This document shows, piece by piece, positions 985 through 10,096 of a stretch of DNA of 11,716 nucleotides (positions are counted from its first letter, which is position 1; every line of letters starts with the position of its first letter). The stretch lies in the IMG/VR virus record IMGVR_UViG_2675903352_000003, positions 1 through 11,716 of that record; one strand, written 5' to 3'. The position numbers and the translations under genes were made by a program. The notes below the pieces were generated by a model. That model was not told where the DNA came from, made no database searches, and saw only the letters and a program-made list of their open reading frames with translations. Origin of the DNA: a virus. Its lineage: Duplodnaviria > Heunggongvirae > Uroviricota > Caudoviricetes.

Positions 985-1012
985 AGGCTATCTTCGGGTG
1001 GCCTTTTTTATT
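985..1012 (+). terminator. intrinsic terminator-like hairpin with cUUCGg tetraloop
   Basis: Stem 985-992 (aggctatc) pairs with 997-1004 (ggtggcct): 8 bp including two G-U pairs. Loop ttcg at 993-996, followed by tttttatt at 1005-1012. Lies 20 nt after the stop of the upstream CDS. Confidence 0.5.
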
Positions 1013-3077: not shown

Positions 3078-3102
3078 AAAAAGGGGCTTCGGTCCCTTTT
3101 TT
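3078..3102 (+). terminator. intrinsic terminator with cUUCGg tetraloop
   Basis: Stem 3078-3087 (aaaaaggggc) pairs with 3092-3101 (gtcccttttt): 10 bp with one G-U. Loop ttcg at 3088-3091, with a T-run through 3102. Begins 5 nt after the capsid stop codon (3071-3073). Confidence 0.7.
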
Positions 3103-5880: not shown

Positions 5881-5940
5881 TTTTCCGTTATTCCCCCTGT
5901 GGTATTGCGCTACAGGGTGGTGTTTTGAATGAGGTTATAG

Positions 5941-6492
5941 ATGTTTATTCTTGAACAGAAAACTATCATCGGTGGAGAACGCTGGTTTACGCCAATGAAG
6001 GACTTAGAACCTATTGCTGGGTTACAACTGTTGGTGGCAAGCAGTGATAATGATCAGTATCGCTCCCGTAATGCATTAATCCGTCGCCACATTGAGAAAA
6101 TGGATGCCAGTTTGCATGTCGGAACGAAGGCGTTTGATATTGCAAAGGTCGTCGAGGTGGACTCTGTTGATGATTTACTCATTGATAACGCCGCTCGTTA
6201 TCTGCTGAAAGACTGGAAAGGGGTTGGAGAGCTGGTAGATGGTGTTGAGGTCGCGCTGGAATATACACCAGAAAGAGGTGCTGCGCTGCTCAAGCAGAAT
6301 CCAGAGTTGTACTGGCAAATCCTTGCAGAAGCCGCCAGAATCGCCCAGGGAAAAGAGCAGCAAAAGCAGGATACGATAAAAAAGCCATTGCCGCCCAGCG
6401 GTGGATATCGGAGTTCGGGGGAGAAAAGGGTGAAAAGGCAAGGTGGAAACGAGAAAAGCTCAGATTGCCGCCGCTCCCGGAGCCAGAAATAG
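5941..6492 (+). CDS. tail assembly chaperone (lambda gpG analogue)
   Basis: 183-aa ORF with GAGG SD about 6 nt upstream of ATG 5941. It lies immediately upstream of the tape measure gene and contains an A_AAA_AAG slippery heptamer near its 3' end. Its last 108 nt overlap an open -1 frame that continues to 6698. Confidence 0.7.
   Translation: MFILEQKTIIGGERWFTPMKDLEPIAGLQLLVASSDNDQYRSRNALIRRHIEKMDASLHVGTKAFDIAKVVEVDSVDDLLIDNAARYLLKDWKGVGELVDGVEVALEYTPERGAALLKQNPELYWQILAEAARIAQGKEQQKQDTIKKPLPPSGGYRSSGEKRVKRQGGNEKSSDCRRSRSQK
6378..6384 (+). promoter_or_regulatory. programmed -1 ribosomal frameshift slippery heptamer A_AAA_AAG (G to G-T)
   Basis: In the G frame the codons are ata(6376) aaa(6379) aag(6382), so 6378-6384 reads A AAA AAG in X_XXY_YYZ register. 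The -1 frame is open from 6249 through 6695. Confidence 0.6.
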
Positions 6493-6698
6493 ACCCGGTT
6501 ATTAGGGAATTGTTGTACGCCTATTCGGTGATATCCCGTGCCCGGCGTTATGCTGGAATGGCTGGGGTGCCTTTGCCTTTATCTCTGTCAGAGATAAATG
6601 AATATTTAGCCACTCATCCGGTATTGATTGAGCGCGATGAATTTGAAGCAGTGATCTTTGCACTGGATGACCAGTATTTTCAGGAGCAGTGTGTGTAG
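6384..6698 (+). CDS. T segment of the G-T tail assembly chaperone fusion, expressed by -1 frameshift from G
   Basis: The -1 frame relative to G is open from the slip site to TAG at 6696-6698. It has no credible independent start (ORF track uses TTG 6465 with no SD). The arrangement matches the conserved G / G-T pair upstream of tape measure genes. Predicted fusion is about 252 aa (148 from G plus 104). Confidence 0.55.
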   Translation, partial: AIAAQRWISEFGGEKGEKARWKREKLRLPPLPEPEIDPVIRELLYAYSVISRARRYAGMAGVPLPLSLSEINEYLATHPVLIERDEFEAVIFALDDQYFQEQCV

Positions 6699-6818
6699 TT
6701 GTTAATTACGTACACTCTGTTACAGAGATGTGATAGTGTCTTTAATTAAATCGATGATGCTCCTGGAGAAAAGCATTGCGTGGCCTCGTAATCGCTATAT
6801 CTACTATTATGTCGCCTG

Positions 6819-6846
6819 AAACCCACTTCGGTGGGTTTTTTTGTTG
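6819..6846 (+). terminator. intrinsic terminator with cUUCGg tetraloop
   Basis: Perfect 8-bp stem, 6819-6826 (aaacccac) with 6831-6838 (gtgggttt). Loop ttcg at 6827-6830, followed by ttttg ttg. Lies in the 164-bp spacer between T and H, 17 nt upstream of the H start codon. Confidence 0.7.
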
Positions 6847-6862
6847 TCAGGAGTTTTAATAA

Positions 6863-9800
6863 ATGGCAGAGCAGACCTCACGTCTTGCAATAATTATTGA
6901 TAGCTCTGGAGCGAAAAATAATGCTGATAATCTGACCTCATCATTAGTCAAAATGACGCAGGCCGGGGAAACTGCTGCAAATAGCGCAGGGAAAGTGACT
7001 AAGGCAACAGAAGACGAGAAGAACGCGCTCGCAAAATTAAAAGCAGCTATTGATCCAGTTGGTGCCGCAATTGATACTGTCGGTCGACGCTATTCTGAAT
7101 TAAAGAAATATTTCGATAAAGGGCTTATTGATAAAGAAGAATATGAATTTCTTGCCCGTAAACTTAATGAAACCACAGAGGAATTGAGCGGGGTTGCGCA
7201 AGCGCAGAGAGAGGCCGAGAAGGCCGGAAAACTTGCTGCCGCCCAGCAGGAAGCGCAGGCTCAGGCCTTTCAAAGAATGCTGGACAAGATCGACCCTCTG
7301 GCTGCGGCGCTAAGAAATCTTGATCAACAGCAGGATGAACTTAATGCTGCACTTTTTTCCGGGAAAATAAATGGCTCTCAGTTTGATAATTACAGCCGAA
7401 AAATACAGGAAACGCGGCGAGAGCTAACAGGAGAGGCTCAGGCAGAACGAGAAGCAGCAAAAGCGCATGATGAACAAGTTGCTGCTTTGCAACGTCTGAT
7501 TGCTCAACTCGATCCTGTTGGAACAGCTTTTAACCGCCTGACAGAGCAGCAAAAGCAACTCAGCGAAGCAAAAGCCAAGGGGATGCTTTCTCCTGAAATG
7601 TATGAGGAGCTTTCAGGAAAACTCCATGCTATGCGGAGTGAGCTTGAGGCTACTCAATCGCAACTCAGCAAAACCGGAATGTCAGCAAAACAAACGGCTT
7701 TTGCTATGCGCATGTTGCCTGCACAAATGACGGATATTGTTGTTGGGTTGTCCACTGGTCAGTCGCCATTTATGGTGTTAATGCAGCAGGGCGGCCAGCT
7801 AAAAGATATGTTCGGTGGGATTGGCCCGGCGATCAAAGGTGTTGGTTCTTATGTGCTGGGATTAATTAATCCTTTTACCCTGGCCGCAGCAGCCGTTGGC
7901 GCCTTGGGGCTAGCTTACTATAAAGGTTCTCAGGAGCAGGACGAATTTAATAAATCTCTTATTCTTACCGGAAATCAGTTGGGGACAACCAGCGGGCAAT
8001 TAGCCGATATAGCTCAACGTGCCGGGGATGCTGCTGATTCGACAACTGGCGCTGCGGCGGCAGTATTAAACCAGCTTGTGCGTTCGGGAAAGGTCGCGAG
8101 CAGTTCGCTGGAGCAGGTGACGACAGCGATAGTAAAAACGAGCGAATTAACTGGAATATCGACCGATCAACTGGTTAATAATTTCAATGAAATTGCAAAG
8201 GATCCTGTCAGTGCCATATCAAAACTTAATGATCAGTACCATTTTCTGACACTGGCGACTTATAACCAGATTAAGGCGCTACAGGATGAAGGGAACCAGC
8301 AGGAGGCGGCCCGCATTGCGACAGAAGCATACTCATCCTCAATGATCCAGCGCACCAACCAGATTAAAGAAAATCTTGGTTATCTTGAGACTGCATGGAA
8401 AGCTGTCGCAGACTCCGCAAAATGGGCATGGGATTCCATGCTGGATATTGGCCGTGAGGCCTCCCTTGATCAAAAAATCTCAGATGTTCTCCGTCAAATT
8501 GATGAAATAGAAAAAAATACCCGACCCGGAGTTTTCGGGTTAGGTGGCATTGGAGATGGCGGAGCTCAAAATAAAAGGCTGGCACGATTAAAGCAGCAAT
8601 TGGGCGTACTTCAAGCAGAAAAAATTGCTCAGGACGTACTAAATTCATCAATAAACGATTACAACAAGCGACAACAGGAAGGAATTGAACTCAGACAGAG
8701 AGCAGATGCCTTTTCAAAACAATATCAGACCCGGGAGCAGCAGAGAGCTAGTGAACTTGCAAAACTGGAAAAACTAAAGAGTCAGTATTCAAAGGAAGAA
8801 TATAATAATCTTATCGCTCAAATAAATGAGCGTTATAAAGATCCAAAGCAACCAAAGGCGAAAGGTTATTCGGATGATGCAGCCCAACGAATGATTGATC
8901 ATCTGAATCAACAGAATGCGTTACTAAGTTCACAAACTGAATTAACCGTTAAATTAAGTTCCTCTGAACAGGAACTGGTTAAGTGGCGTCAGCAGATTGC
9001 CGACCTGGAGTCACGACCGTCATCAAAATTAACTAAGGATCAGAAATCGCTTCTCTTACACCGGGAAGAAATAACCGCGTTGATGGAGAAAAATGTTGCG
9101 ATTGAAAAAAATAACAGGCTAATCAAGGAGTCAGCCGAAATAGCCGCATGGCGTAGTTCATTGCAGGCTTCTATTGATAATCATCAGCAGGGGTATGACA
9201 TTCAGATCGCTGGTTATGGACTTGGCGATAAAAATCAGCAACGTCAGCAGGAATTACTGCGGATTGAACGTGAATATAACAACCGGCGTCTGCAACTTGA
9301 ACGTGACTATGCGGATAAATCTCGTGGAATGTCTGAACGTGTTTTTCAGGAAAAAATACAGGTCCTGAATGATGCTGTGGAGCGGGAAAAAGAAATTATC
9401 AGGCAGAAAAATGAGCAGCTCGATATTCAGGCTGGAGACTGGGTAAGTGGGGCGTCCCAAGGATTCAATAACTGGTTGGATAACACTAAGGATATCAGCG
9501 GGCAGATAAAATCAACCACGACTCAGATGTTTGATGGGATGACAGATGCGCTTGGTGATTTTGTCACGACAGGTAAGGCAAATTTTCGTTCTTTCGCTAC
9601 CTCCGTGATTTCAGATCTTAGCAGAATAGCATTAAAGGCTTCAATTACCGGGATTTTCGACAGCATTAGCAACAGTTCTTCTGGGGGAATTTTAGGAACT
9701 ATCGGAAGTGCTGTTAGTAAATTTATTCCTAATGCAAAGGGCGGTATTTATGAGTCTCCATCATTGAGTACATATTCAAACGGTATTTATGATTCCCCGC

Positions 9801-10096
9801 AATTTTTTGCTTTTGCAAAAGGTGCTGGTGTTTTTGGTGAGGCTGGACCGGAAGCTATTATGCCATTAACACGAACTTCCGATGGTTCTCTTGGTGTCAG
9901 GGCGATTAATAATAAAGGCGGTAATGGAGGCGGAGACATTAATTACTCTCCTGTATATCAAATTACTATCAAAAATGACGGACAGAATGGAGAGATTGGC
10001 CCTCAGGCAATTAGAACACTTATGGGAATGGTTGATCAGCGAGTGCAGGGCACTTTGTTAAATATGCGACGTGATGGAGGAATGTTAAGTGGCTGA
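6863..10096 (+). CDS. H: tail tape measure protein (lambda gpH homologue)
   Basis: 1077-aa ORF with AGGAG at 6849-6853 nine nt upstream of the ATG. It contains [39 protein letters not shown], which I recognise as matching the conserved segment of lambda H ([11 protein letters not shown]...GGQSPW..LQQGGQVKDSFGG), and a C-terminus [13 protein letters not shown]...[10 protein letters not shown] matching lambda H NDGTNGQIGPAAL...MRDGGLFSG. Long central charged coiled-coil-like region. Confidence 0.95.
7046..7672 (+). repeat. three tandem divergent copies of a ~70-80-aa module in the N-terminal region of the tape measure protein (protein-level repeat)
   Basis: Translated copies align: [23 protein letters not shown]...[30 protein letters not shown]; [24 protein letters not shown]...[29 protein letters not shown]; [24 protein letters not shown]...[28 protein letters not shown]. 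The DNA copies are diverged, so the duplication is old. Confidence 0.6.

What the first reader, a model, noticed from the sequence alone, without database searches (positions are those of the whole stretch)
6699..6862. 164-bp non-coding spacer between T and H holding a perfect terminator and promoter-like elements; candidate small transcript or regulatory hub
All other gene junctions in the window are 0-60 nt or overlapping, but T and H are separated by 164 AT-rich nt. The spacer ends in a perfect 8-bp cUUCGg hairpin with a T-run (6819-6846), 17 nt before the H start. Upstream there is an extended -10-like element (TG at 6729-6730, gatagt at 6732-6737) and a TTGTTA hexamer at 6699-6704. A roughly 100-nt RNA from about 6744 to the terminator is conceivable; alternatively the spacer is a recombination scar at a module boundary. 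The only ORF inside it (6754-6819, 21 codons) has no SD.
Basis: inference. Interest (0 to 1): 0.45.

Follow-up and report, generated by a model that had tools for sequence, protein, structure and literature searches.

The report
Conserved terminator before tape-measure gene
The spacer is a conserved transcription-terminator hairpin that precedes the tail tape-measure gene in a whole family of phages, plus about 120 bases of orphan filler sitting in a well-known insertion slot for accessory genes; nothing tested here shows that it makes its own small RNA.

Summary
The sequence features are real. The window is a Rac-like lambdoid prophage, and the same spacer lies between ydaY and ynaA/tmpR in E. 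coli K-12.

The spacer has two parts.

(1) 6818-6862 holds a hairpin, a U-tract and a Shine-Dalgarno leader. This module sits 17-27 nt upstream of the tape-measure start in 50 of 54 distinct junctions, from Escherichia to Acinetobacter. Random 55-nt windows of the same loci show such a hairpin 1% of the time. Compensatory changes keep the stem paired. The module is present even where the whole junction is 36-45 nt.

(2) 6699-6817 is a low-GC orphan insert found only in the Rac lineage. It occupies the slot where relatives carry 0-2.6 kb of accessory genes (Ail/Lom, superinfection immunity, toxin-antitoxin and others). This is the position of HK97 gene 15, the original "moron".

The proposed promoter is no better than chance, and most relatives carry a weaker -10. 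The small ORF has lost the ATG present in the K-12 type and has no wider homologues. The K-12 tables I could search show no RNA 3' end or translated small ORF here.

Verdict: an insulating or attenuating terminator plus a minimal or vestigial cargo. An sRNA is not excluded, with PasB as a precedent. Interest is modest.

The parts
6378..6384 (+). A_AAA_AAG slippery heptamer, the likely -1 frameshift site joining G to the T frame (context)
   Evidence: Sequence. The T frame is open from 6249 to 6698. In K-12-type relatives the G stop TAG lies two codons downstream; the window has TTG there. Frameshifting itself is inferred, not shown.
6465..6698 (+). T-frame ORF, the C-terminal extension of the tail assembly chaperone G-T. 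Its last codons after ...FALDDQY mark the left edge of the variable slot.
   Evidence: tblastn finds T homologues in 48 phage records, some annotated 'tail assembly chaperone' with a joined CDS. In alignment A2 the C-terminal tails diverge after ALDD.
6699..6817 (+). Lineage-specific orphan insert, the 'cargo' of the slot in Rac-type prophages. It has low GC and no convincing gene, promoter or structure.
   Evidence: - Found once per genome in 1046 of 5426 E. coli genomes, always at least 95% identical, never annotated.
- No significant similarity to any sampled cargo.
- GC 0.387 against 0.45-0.49 in the flanks.
- Fold z = -0.73.
6754..6819 (+). 21-codon ORF without SD. In K-12-type sequences it is a 28-codon ORF starting at an ATG equivalent to 6733-6735, which is ATA in this window.
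   Evidence: - Translation.
- 6735 is A in 5 and G in 31 of 36 distinct sequences.
- The only hits among 1.84 billion representatives are two near-identical 28- and 31-aa predictions.
- Absent from the Ribo-RET supplement I could search.
6818..6846 (+). Intrinsic-terminator-type hairpin (GAAACCCAC-TTCG-GTGGGTTTT) with its U-tract
   Evidence: - Found by the scan; -12.5 kcal/mol, z = -2.96.
- A homologous hairpin and U-tract sit 17-27 nt upstream of H in 50 of 54 distinct junctions, against 1.0% of random 55-nt windows.
- On the model-fitted alignment A6, 96.6% of cells are paired, 6 of 8 pairs carry double changes, and the covariation score is 0.456 against at most 0.094 when partners are slid.
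6847..6862 (+). Leader of the tape-measure gene with SD AGGAG (6849-6853), part of the conserved block hairpin-TTTTTT-ATGCCCGGAGA-N-ATG
   Evidence: In alignment A3 the T-run and the GGAG columns are invariant or at least 90% conserved across 45 junctions. Covariance model R1 finds hairpin plus leader just upstream of H in 51 loci and the window.
6863..10096 (+). Tail tape-measure gene (H; ynaA/tmpR homologue), the gene the module precedes
   Evidence: ORF list and annotation of relatives.
6677..6686 (+). Left copy of a 10-nt direct repeat, TTTTCAGGAG. The right copy, TTGTCAGGAG, is at 6844-6853. Together they bracket 167 nt that include the insert and the hairpin. This may be a junction microhomology or chance.
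   Evidence: the repeat finder family D1. By my estimate about 0.8 such 9-of-10 repeats are expected by chance in 231 nt. The left copy coincides with the point where Rac-type and Lom-cargo relatives diverge.

Best explanation
The spacer is a composite of two parts.

Part 1 (6818-6862) is a Rho-independent terminator hairpin with a U-tract, directly followed by the Shine-Dalgarno leader of the tape-measure gene. This module is a resident, conserved part of the chaperone|tape-measure boundary in this family of siphovirus tail operons.

In a lambdoid phage whose late operon is driven by a Q antiterminator, RNA polymerase modified by Q should read through the hairpin during lytic growth. In the prophage, unmodified polymerase coming from upstream stops here. 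Such polymerase can start at accessory-gene ('moron') promoters or at spurious promoters in AT-rich inserts. It therefore does not enter the tape-measure and tail-tip genes. Because a terminator is already in place, DNA inserted just upstream of it is tolerated. This would explain why the slot collects cargo.

Part 2 (6699-6817) is what the slot holds in the Rac lineage. It is a 119-nt low-GC orphan sequence, most likely a vestigial or minimal cargo with no function of its own.

Shown here: the anatomy, the family-wide conservation and covariation of the hairpin, the variability of the slot, and the lack of promoter, gene or homology signal in the insert.

Inferred: that the hairpin terminates transcription in vivo, that Q overrides it, and that the insert is functionless.
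For: - The window is a Rac-like lambdoid structural module. The same spacer lies between ydaY and ynaA in MG1655.
- An intact relative carries an annotated antiterminator Q upstream of the lysis, trkG and structural genes, all on one strand.
- T-H spacer lengths in 54 distinct junctions are 36-45 nt, 163-165 nt (Rac type) or 403-2624 nt.
- A hairpin with a T-run sits 17-27 nt before the H start in 50 of 54 junctions, against 1.0% of random windows.
- In minimal junctions the T stop codon directly abuts the hairpin.
- The stem is kept by compensatory changes: 96.6% of cells paired, 53 double-change cells, 0 of 500 shuffles as high, slid controls 32-57% paired. The U-tract columns are invariant.
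- The same stem occurs with many unrelated upstream sequences: CCTCGC/GCGGGG with 10 contexts, ACCCGC/GCGGGT with 8. The window's ACCCAC/GTGGGT also occurs in Providencia and Acinetobacter with other contexts. The hairpin therefore travels with H, not with the cargo.
- Cargo in relatives is typical accessory material: Ail/Lom, Imm_superinfect, Zn-ribbon, P22 antirepressor/KilA-N, SocA, YafO, GNAT and PDC-S42. Its GC is 5-14 points below the flanks, as is the window insert's.
- HK97 gene 15, the first 'moron', lies between the tail chaperone and tape-measure genes. Morons carry their own promoter and terminator (PMC3594210).
- The insert has no promoter above chance, no fold signal, no Rfam family and no homologues.
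Against: - No experiment shows termination at this site. The Term-seq tables I could search list no 3' end at MG1655 14263xx-14264xx. That is expected if the region is silent, because trkG has its own terminator-like hairpin, but it is not positive evidence.
- Insulation does not obviously explain why cargo-free junctions keep the hairpin. There an attenuator or RNA-stability role fits better.
- Within the closest relatives, the Rac-insert and Lom-cargo types have H proteins 93-99% identical but different hairpins. The hairpin can therefore be exchanged together with cargo.
- The insert is less diverse (pi 0.0044, 5 of 119 sites variable) than nearby third-codon positions (0.0098 in the T 3' half; 0.0225 in the first 300 nt of H). 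This could reflect constraint. It could also reflect a recently exchanged low-diversity block spanning about 6550-6850.
- The Q assignment rests on one record's annotation. Late-gene regulation in the Pseudomonas and Acinetobacter relatives is unknown.
- The pair counts were made on an alignment fitted to the model's structure, which leans towards that structure.
Confidence: 0.6

Rival explanations
1. Programmed attenuator or RNA-stability element. The hairpin acts during lytic growth. It either terminates part of the transcripts or blocks 3'-to-5' decay of the upstream RNA segment. Either way the abundant products upstream (capsid, tube, G/G-T chaperone) are made in excess over the tape-measure and tip proteins, which are needed in only a few copies per virion.
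For: - The hairpin is kept in cargo-free junctions, where nothing upstream needs insulating.
- It lies exactly at the boundary between high-copy and low-copy structural genes.
- Similar hairpin-SD-start arrangements follow the capsid gene (3078-3101) and the tube gene (5895-5917) in this window. The model also gives weak hits at tube|G junctions of relatives.
- Internal partial terminators and protective 3' hairpins are established ways of tuning operon stoichiometry (for example the rplL-rpoB attenuator and T7 T-phi; from my own knowledge).
Against: In a Q-antiterminated lambdoid operon intrinsic terminators are expected to be read through, which would leave only the RNA-stability version. 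There are no expression data. This reading is not exclusive of the insulator reading.
Confidence: 0.3
2. One reading: the spacer is a small-RNA gene. A weak promoter in 6699-6745 would drive a roughly 100-140 nt, possibly Hfq-binding RNA that ends at the terminator and is expressed from the prophage.
For: - A terminator with a 7-U tail is preceded by an AU-rich stretch (UAUAUCUACUAUUAU), the usual 3' module of Hfq-dependent sRNAs (sequence).
- There is a validated precedent for an sRNA in a tail-operon spacer. PasB of EPEC E2348/69 is 83 nt, Hfq-dependent and confirmed by northern blot. It lies in the I-J spacer of prophage PP6 (PMC8550237 table S6; bioRxiv 10.64898/2026.05.13.724894).
- The insert is nearly invariant in more than 1000 genomes and less diverse than nearby synonymous sites.
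- The simple promoter scan also misses promoters in relatives that clearly carry expressed-type cargo, so a negative scan is weak evidence.
Against: - The promoter match is at chance level and its -10 is weaker (GATGGT) in 31 of 36 variants.
- The fold of the insert is unremarkable.
- No Rfam hit reaches threshold. The isrB match (18.9 bits, gathering score 35) covers only the hairpin.
- There is no similarity to PasB.
- MG1655 RefSeq has no feature there.
- The Term-seq, RIL-seq-prediction and SMRT-Cappable-seq supplements I could search have no entry at the K-12 coordinates. Some of those files are truncated.
- No diverged homologues exist, so covariation cannot be tested.
Confidence: 0.12
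3. The insert encodes a small protein: 28 aa (MVSLIKSMMLLEKSIAWPRNRYIYYYVA) in the K-12 type, 21 aa here. Its stop codon overlaps the base of the hairpin, so translating it could also modulate termination.
For: The ORF is open in all Rac-type copies and has been called by gene predictors (P0001). The stop TGA at 6817-6819 overlaps the first stem base. The slot holds small membrane-type proteins in other phages, for example HK97 gp15.
Against: - There is no SD.
- The ATG is lost (ATA) in this window and in 5 of 36 variants.
- There is no homologue beyond about 96%-identical copies in 1.84 billion representatives.
- It is not in the Ribo-RET small-ORF supplement I could search.
- A 37-codon open stretch in AT-rich sequence is not unusual (about 17% by my estimate).
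Confidence: 0.04

Closest known systems
Moron elements of lambdoid phages, specifically the HK97 gene 15 moron between the tail assembly chaperone and tape-measure genes (Juhala et al. 2000; Cumby et al. 2012; reviewed in PMC3594210)
   Same: Same genomic position (T|H junction). Extra DNA relative to related phages, lower GC than the flanks, and a factor-independent terminator at the 3' end just before H. Relatives of this window carry typical moron cargo in the slot (Ail/Lom, superinfection immunity and others).
   Different: This window's insert has no recognisable protein gene and no promoter above chance. The terminator is conserved in cargo-free junctions and stays the same under many different cargos. 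It therefore looks like a resident feature of the H upstream region rather than something each moron brings.
Intrinsic (Rho-independent) terminators used as intra-operon attenuators or insulators (for example the rplL-rpoB attenuator and T7 T-phi after gene 10; my own knowledge)
   Same: GC-rich stem of 5-10 bp, a 4-nt loop (often UUCG), an invariant U-tract, and placement between high-demand and low-demand cistrons.
   Different: No termination efficiency has been measured. In a Q-dependent operon the site is expected to be overridden during late transcription.
PasB, the prophage-encoded Hfq-dependent sRNA of EPEC E2348/69 (PMC8550237; bioRxiv 10.64898/2026.05.13.724894)
   Same: A discrete element in an unusually long intergenic spacer of a lambdoid tail operon. 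It ends in an intrinsic terminator and occurs as a single copy in many E. coli genomes.
   Different: PasB lies in the I-J spacer and is antisense to the tail genes. It is experimentally detected. Its sequence is unrelated to the window spacer (local alignment score 17 against a null of 14.3 +/- 2.1). E2348/69 prophage PP6 has a different, 47-nt T-H junction.

Membership tests
Intrinsic (Rho-independent) terminator | GC-rich stem-loop (stem at least 5 bp, loop 3-8 nt) | tested here: met
   9 pairs including 4 G-C, loop TTCG, -12.5 kcal/mol, z = -2.96.
Intrinsic (Rho-independent) terminator | U-tract immediately 3' of the stem | tested here: met
   TTTTTTTGTTG follows the stem. The T columns are invariant across 45 aligned junctions.
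Intrinsic (Rho-independent) terminator | Structure maintained in evolution (compensatory changes) | tested here: met
   6 of 8 pairs have changes on both sides, 96.6% of cells are paired, and the covariation score is 0.456 against at most 0.094 in slid controls. Caveat: the alignment was fitted to the model.
Intrinsic (Rho-independent) terminator | RNA 3' ends at the U-tract in vivo or in vitro | tested here: inconclusive
   No 3' end at MG1655 14263xx-14264xx in the Term-seq supplement text held. The region is probably not transcribed in K-12, because trkG has its own terminator-like hairpin. No in vitro data.
Moron (Juhala et al. 2000 definition) | Extra DNA between two genes that are adjacent in related phages | tested here: met
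   The T-H junction is 36-45 nt in 12 related loci and 164 nt here.
Moron (Juhala et al. 2000 definition) | Base composition different from the flanking genes | tested here: met
   Insert GC 0.387 against 0.487 (T) and 0.449 (H). It falls in the lowest 8.5% of 119-nt windows, so the difference is only moderate.
Moron (Juhala et al. 2000 definition) | Own promoter active in the repressed prophage | tested here: not met
No + strand promoter in the tool scan. Activity itself cannot be tested with these tools.
Moron (Juhala et al. 2000 definition) | A protein-coding gene | tested here: not met
   Only a 21-codon ORF without SD. The start codon of the longer K-12 form is lost here, and there are no homologues.
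Moron (Juhala et al. 2000 definition) | Factor-independent terminator at the 3' end | tested here: met
   Hairpin at 6818-6846. Family-wide it behaves as a resident feature rather than part of the cargo.
Hfq-dependent trans-acting sRNA gene | Own transcription start giving a discrete 50-300 nt RNA | tested here: inconclusive
   The sequence signal is at chance level. The TSS tables held were truncated or empty for this region.
Hfq-dependent trans-acting sRNA gene | Terminator hairpin with a long U-tail and an adjacent AU-rich site | tested here: met
   7 U after the stem, and UAUAUCUACUAUUAU just upstream.
Hfq-dependent trans-acting sRNA gene | Detection with Hfq (RIL-seq or CLIP) or by northern blot | tested here: inconclusive
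   No ynaA/ydaY entry or matching coordinates in the RIL-seq sRNA-prediction supplement for K-12. The raw data could not be examined.
Pas sRNA family (PasB) | Sequence similarity to PasB | tested here: not met
   Local alignment score 17 against a shuffled mean of 14.3 +/- 2.1. The PasB probe sequence is absent from the spacer.
Any Rfam family | Score at or above the family's gathering threshold | tested here: not met
   Best matches are isrB at 18.9 bits (threshold 35) and rsmX at 18 bits (threshold 56). Both are driven by the terminator hairpin.

The most novel reading that the evidence does not exclude
The terminator-SD module in front of the tape-measure gene is a designed feature of this large family of siphovirus tail operons. 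It would have two jobs. First, it sets or insulates expression at the boundary between high-copy and low-copy tail genes. Second, it acts as a ready-made landing pad: a promoter-bearing accessory gene dropped just upstream becomes a self-contained transcription unit. On this view the terminator comes first, which would explain why the chaperone|tape-measure junction is a cargo hotspot from Escherichia to Acinetobacter. A further possibility is that the Rac-type insert uses the pad for a small RNA present in about 19% of complete E. coli genomes, including K-12.
Probability: 0.25. Interest if true: 0.55.

Novelty: new member of a known kind. Interest (0 to 1): 0.3.

Why it matters
The result turns an odd spacer into two ordinary, explainable parts. 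It also shows that the spacer is present in E. coli K-12 (MG1655 about 1,426,289-1,426,453), so any transcript can be checked in existing data.

The wider observation is more useful than the spacer itself. A conserved, covarying terminator sits immediately upstream of the tape-measure gene, with or without cargo. This gives a simple anchor for finding accessory, defence and superinfection-exclusion genes in prophage tail operons. It also suggests why this junction tolerates insertions.

If the insert were an sRNA, it would add a Rac-prophage regulator to K-12. The evidence for that is weak.

Tried and rejected
1. Insert as a deletion remnant of the Ail/Lom moron or other sampled cargo. Rejected: blastn-short and local alignments against all cargo fall within the dinucleotide-shuffle null.
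2. Insert as a repeated element (REP, MITE). Rejected: one copy per genome.
4. Identity with PasB. This was attractive because PasB is single-copy, embedded in structural genes and common in ST10. Rejected: PasB lies in the I-J spacer on the opposite strand, and its sequence is unrelated.
5. RNAalifold on a plain MAFFT alignment gave no structure, because arms of different loop lengths were out of register. I solved this with a covariance model built from 15 in-register sequences.
6. Literature mining of K-12 supplements:
- The Term-seq supplement had no hit.
- The Cappable-seq file was truncated.
- The SMRT-Cappable-seq supplement had nothing.
- The Rend-seq paper had no supplements held.
- The TERMITe supplement had nothing relevant.
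- The Ribo-RET supplement had no hit.
- The RIL-seq prediction supplement had no hit.
- The Thomason dRNA-seq paper is not held.
- One paper search was wasted because 'tmpR' also matched TMPRSS.
7. A partial hit in strain ET734 looked like an alternative cargo sharing the insert's 3' end. It is an IS1 insertion and rearrangement.
8. Translation-coupled control, in which a ribosome stopping at the hairpin base would affect termination. The stop codon abuts the hairpin in minimal junctions and for the window's small ORF. In cargo-bearing junctions the stop-to-hairpin distance looked variable by eye and was not measured, so this is not a general feature.

Full report
WHAT THE WINDOW IS

The window is the structural (late) module of a Rac-like lambdoid prophage. 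Megablast of 5900-7400 finds ten phage records at about 94% identity. The 6400-7100 segment occurs in 1072 of 5426 complete E. coli genomes, including K-12 strains. In MG1655 the homologous junction lies between ydaY (b1366) and ynaA/tmpR (b1368) in cryptic prophage Rac. The ynaA start at 1,426,454 corresponds to window 6863, and nothing is annotated between the two genes.

H (6863-10096) is the tape-measure gene.

CHECK OF THE OBSERVATION

All sequence features are at the stated coordinates. The hairpin GAAACCCAC-TTCG-GTGGGTTTT followed by TTTGTTG is found by the terminator scan. It folds at -12.5 kcal/mol, z = -2.96.

Two statements do not hold.

First, the gap is not unique. Using the start codons of a 98%-identical RefSeq relative, the junctions 965 to 1070 and 1834 to 1935 are about 100 nt. 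Terminator-like hairpins followed by an SD and a start codon also lie at 985-1004, at 3078-3101 (after the P22-type capsid gene) and at 5895-5917 (after the tube gene).

Second, the promoter is not convincing.
- TTGTTA is 27 nt from GATAGT, which is too far.
- With a 17-nt spacer the -35 would be CGTACA.
- A rough weight matrix scores the site at about 2 bits, roughly the 99th percentile of all positions.
- The tool's scan finds no + strand site in the spacer.
- Position 6735 is G (GATGGT) in 31 of 36 distinct Rac-type sequences.

COMPARISON WITH RELATIVES: THE KEY RESULT

tblastn with the T domain found relatives at 35-65% identity in Klebsiella, Erwinia, Pseudomonas and Acinetobacter phages. 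An alignment of these (A2) retrieved 118 further loci from genomes and IMG/VR. I located the T stop and the H start in each.

The T-H spacer falls into three size classes:
- 36-45 nt in 12 loci;
- 163-165 nt (the Rac type, 54 sequences counting this window);
- 403-2624 nt, carrying genes.

In 50 of 54 distinct junctions a GC-rich hairpin with a T-run lies within 55 nt upstream of the H start. In the listing these hairpins end 17-27 nt before the start. The same detector fires in 1.0% of random 55-nt windows of the same loci. Downstream of the hairpin comes a conserved leader, TTTTTT-ATGCCCGGAGA-N-ATG. In the minimal junctions the T stop codon directly abuts the hairpin.

A covariance model built from 15 in-register sequences finds the module just upstream of H in 51 loci and the window. 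On the resulting alignment:
- 96.6% of cells form pairs;
- 6 of 8 pairs have changes on both sides (53 cells);
- the covariation score is 0.456, against at most 0.094 when partners are slid;
- no shuffle out of 500 reaches the observed values.

The alignment is fitted to the model, so these counts lean towards the structure. The raw list of stems shows the same thing: CCCAC/GTGGG, CCCGC/GCGGG, CCTCGC/GCGGGG, CCCGG/CCGGG, GCCGC/GCGGC and CCGACC/GGTCGG.

The same stem occurs with many unrelated upstream sequences. CCTCGC/GCGGGG has 10 contexts and ACCCGC/GCGGGT has 8. The window's ACCCAC/GTGGGT also occurs in Providencia and Acinetobacter. In most lineages, therefore, the hairpin belongs to the H-proximal conserved block and not to the cargo. 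There is an exception among the closest relatives. The Rac-insert and Lom-cargo types have nearly identical H proteins but different hairpins, so exchange can include the hairpin.

THE SLOT

The DNA between the T stop and the hairpin is a cargo slot. E. coli RM10740 carries an Ail/Lom gene there, preceded by an AT-rich upstream region. Klebsiella, Pseudomonas and Acinetobacter phages carry one to several genes.

Pfam hits among 50 cargo ORFs include Ail_Lom, Imm_superinfect, zinc ribbons, P22_AR_N/KilA-N, SocA_Panacea, YafO toxin, GNAT and Arc. PADLOC finds PDC-S42. Cargo GC is 5-14 points below the flanks.

This is the position of HK97 gene 15, the element for which the word 'moron' was coined. 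Morons are defined as carrying their own promoter and terminator (PMC3594210).

THE 119-NT INSERT OF THIS WINDOW (6699-6817)

- It is present once per genome in 1046 E. coli genomes, always at least 95% identical and never annotated.
- It has no diverged homologue in phages.
- It has no similarity to any sampled cargo beyond the shuffle null.
- Its fold is unremarkable (z = -0.73).
- It has no Rfam family. The isrB and rsmX matches are far below threshold and rest on the hairpin.
- Its GC is 0.387.

In this window that codon is ATA. Its only relatives among 1.84 billion representatives are two near-identical predictions. It is absent from the Ribo-RET small-ORF supplement I could search.

Diversity in the insert (pi 0.0044) is lower than at neighbouring third-codon positions (0.0098 and 0.0225). 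However, the insert lies inside a low-diversity block of about 300 nt that also covers the 3' half of T. Recent exchange explains the low diversity as well as selection does.

K-12 DATA

- The Term-seq supplement text held lists no 3' end at 14263xx-14264xx.
- The RIL-seq-based sRNA prediction supplement has nothing for ynaA, ydaY or these coordinates.
- The SMRT-Cappable-seq supplement has nothing either.
- The Cappable-seq file is truncated.

These are weak negatives. trkG, the nearest expressed gene upstream, has its own terminator-like hairpin, so the region may simply be silent.

MECHANISM

An intact relative has an annotated antiterminator Q upstream of the lysis, trkG and structural genes, all on one strand. 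By analogy with lambda, Q-modified polymerase should read through intrinsic terminators.

I therefore favour an insulating role in the prophage. Any transcription starting upstream, from cargo promoters or spurious ones, stops before the tape-measure and tip genes. A resident terminator would also make the site permissive for cargo gain.

The main rival is an attenuator or RNA-stability role during lytic growth. It is favoured by two observations: the hairpin persists in cargo-free junctions, and similar hairpins follow the capsid and tube genes. The two roles are not exclusive, and neither is tested.

The sRNA reading keeps a small probability. The 3' module looks like an Hfq site. PasB of EPEC shows that a tail-operon spacer can hold a validated sRNA. 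However, PasB lies in the I-J spacer, is antisense to the tail genes, and is unrelated in sequence.

VERDICT

The 'regulatory hub / small transcript' interpretation is not supported.

The element is a new member of a known kind, namely the moron slot with its terminator. Interest is modest at 0.3. The most useful by-product is the conserved terminator-SD module, which can serve as an anchor for finding cargo in tail operons.

Noticed in passing
window 985-1004, 3078-3101, 5895-5917: Three more terminator-like hairpins in the late operon. Each lies in an intergenic gap and is followed by an SD and a start codon: after the minor head protein gene, after the P22-type major capsid gene (also a cUUCGg loop), and after the tail tube gene. 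Model R1 gives weak hits at the tube|G junction of several relatives.
   Followed up: partly
window 6677-6686 and 6844-6853: A 10-nt direct repeat, TTTTCAGGAG / TTGTCAGGAG, brackets 167 nt comprising the insert and the hairpin. Removing one copy and the interval would give a compact junction, ...CAG GAG TTT TAA TAA ATG. This could be an insertion footprint. About 0.8 such repeats are expected by chance.
   Followed up: partly
window 6735 (sORF 6733-6819): A/G polymorphism. G (K-12 type, 31 of 36 distinct sequences) creates the ATG of a 28-codon ORF, MVSLIKSMMLLEKSIAWPRNRYIYYYVA. The window has ATA.
   Followed up: yes
window 6705..6676, - strand: The best promoter-like site near the spacer is on the minus strand: TTAACA-18-GAAAAT, 9 of 12 matches, top 0.02% in a rough weight matrix. 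It is also present in K-12. It would drive antisense transcription into T. No minus-strand terminator lies nearby.
   Followed up: no
window 6388-6390: The G stop codon is polymorphic. K-12-type relatives have TAG two codons after the slippery site. The window and strain MEI003 have TTG, which extends the G ORF by 34 codons to 6492. G then overlaps the T frame for more than 100 nt.
   Followed up: partly
window about 6550-6850: A block of near-identity between the window and K-12-type sequences (1-2 differences in 300 nt) is flanked by segments about 5% diverged. This is the pattern expected from a recent mosaic exchange covering the 3' half of T, the insert and the hairpin.
   Followed up: partly
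L131 3762-3844 (NC_011601.1 1466261-1466343, - strand): The validated sRNA PasB of EPEC E2348/69 lies in the 240-nt I-J spacer of prophage PP6, antisense to the tail genes. Its terminator abuts the stop codon of I. A separate + strand hairpin with a T-run lies about 45 nt upstream of J.
   Followed up: yes
L133 2289-3032 (E. coli ET734): An IS1 element is inserted inside the Rac-type spacer, at about window position 6787, with rearrangement of the tape-measure gene.
   Followed up: yes
L006 2709-2730; L009 3345-3369: Multi-gene cargos carry additional internal terminators between cargo genes, besides the resident one in front of the tape-measure gene.
   Followed up: no
L130 19290-20765 (vB_EcoS-666R9); L004 2783-4350: trkG sits as a separate cargo between the lysis genes and the terminase genes in intact Rac-like phages. 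In K-12 it is followed by its own terminator-like hairpin (L004 4327-4350).
   Followed up: partly
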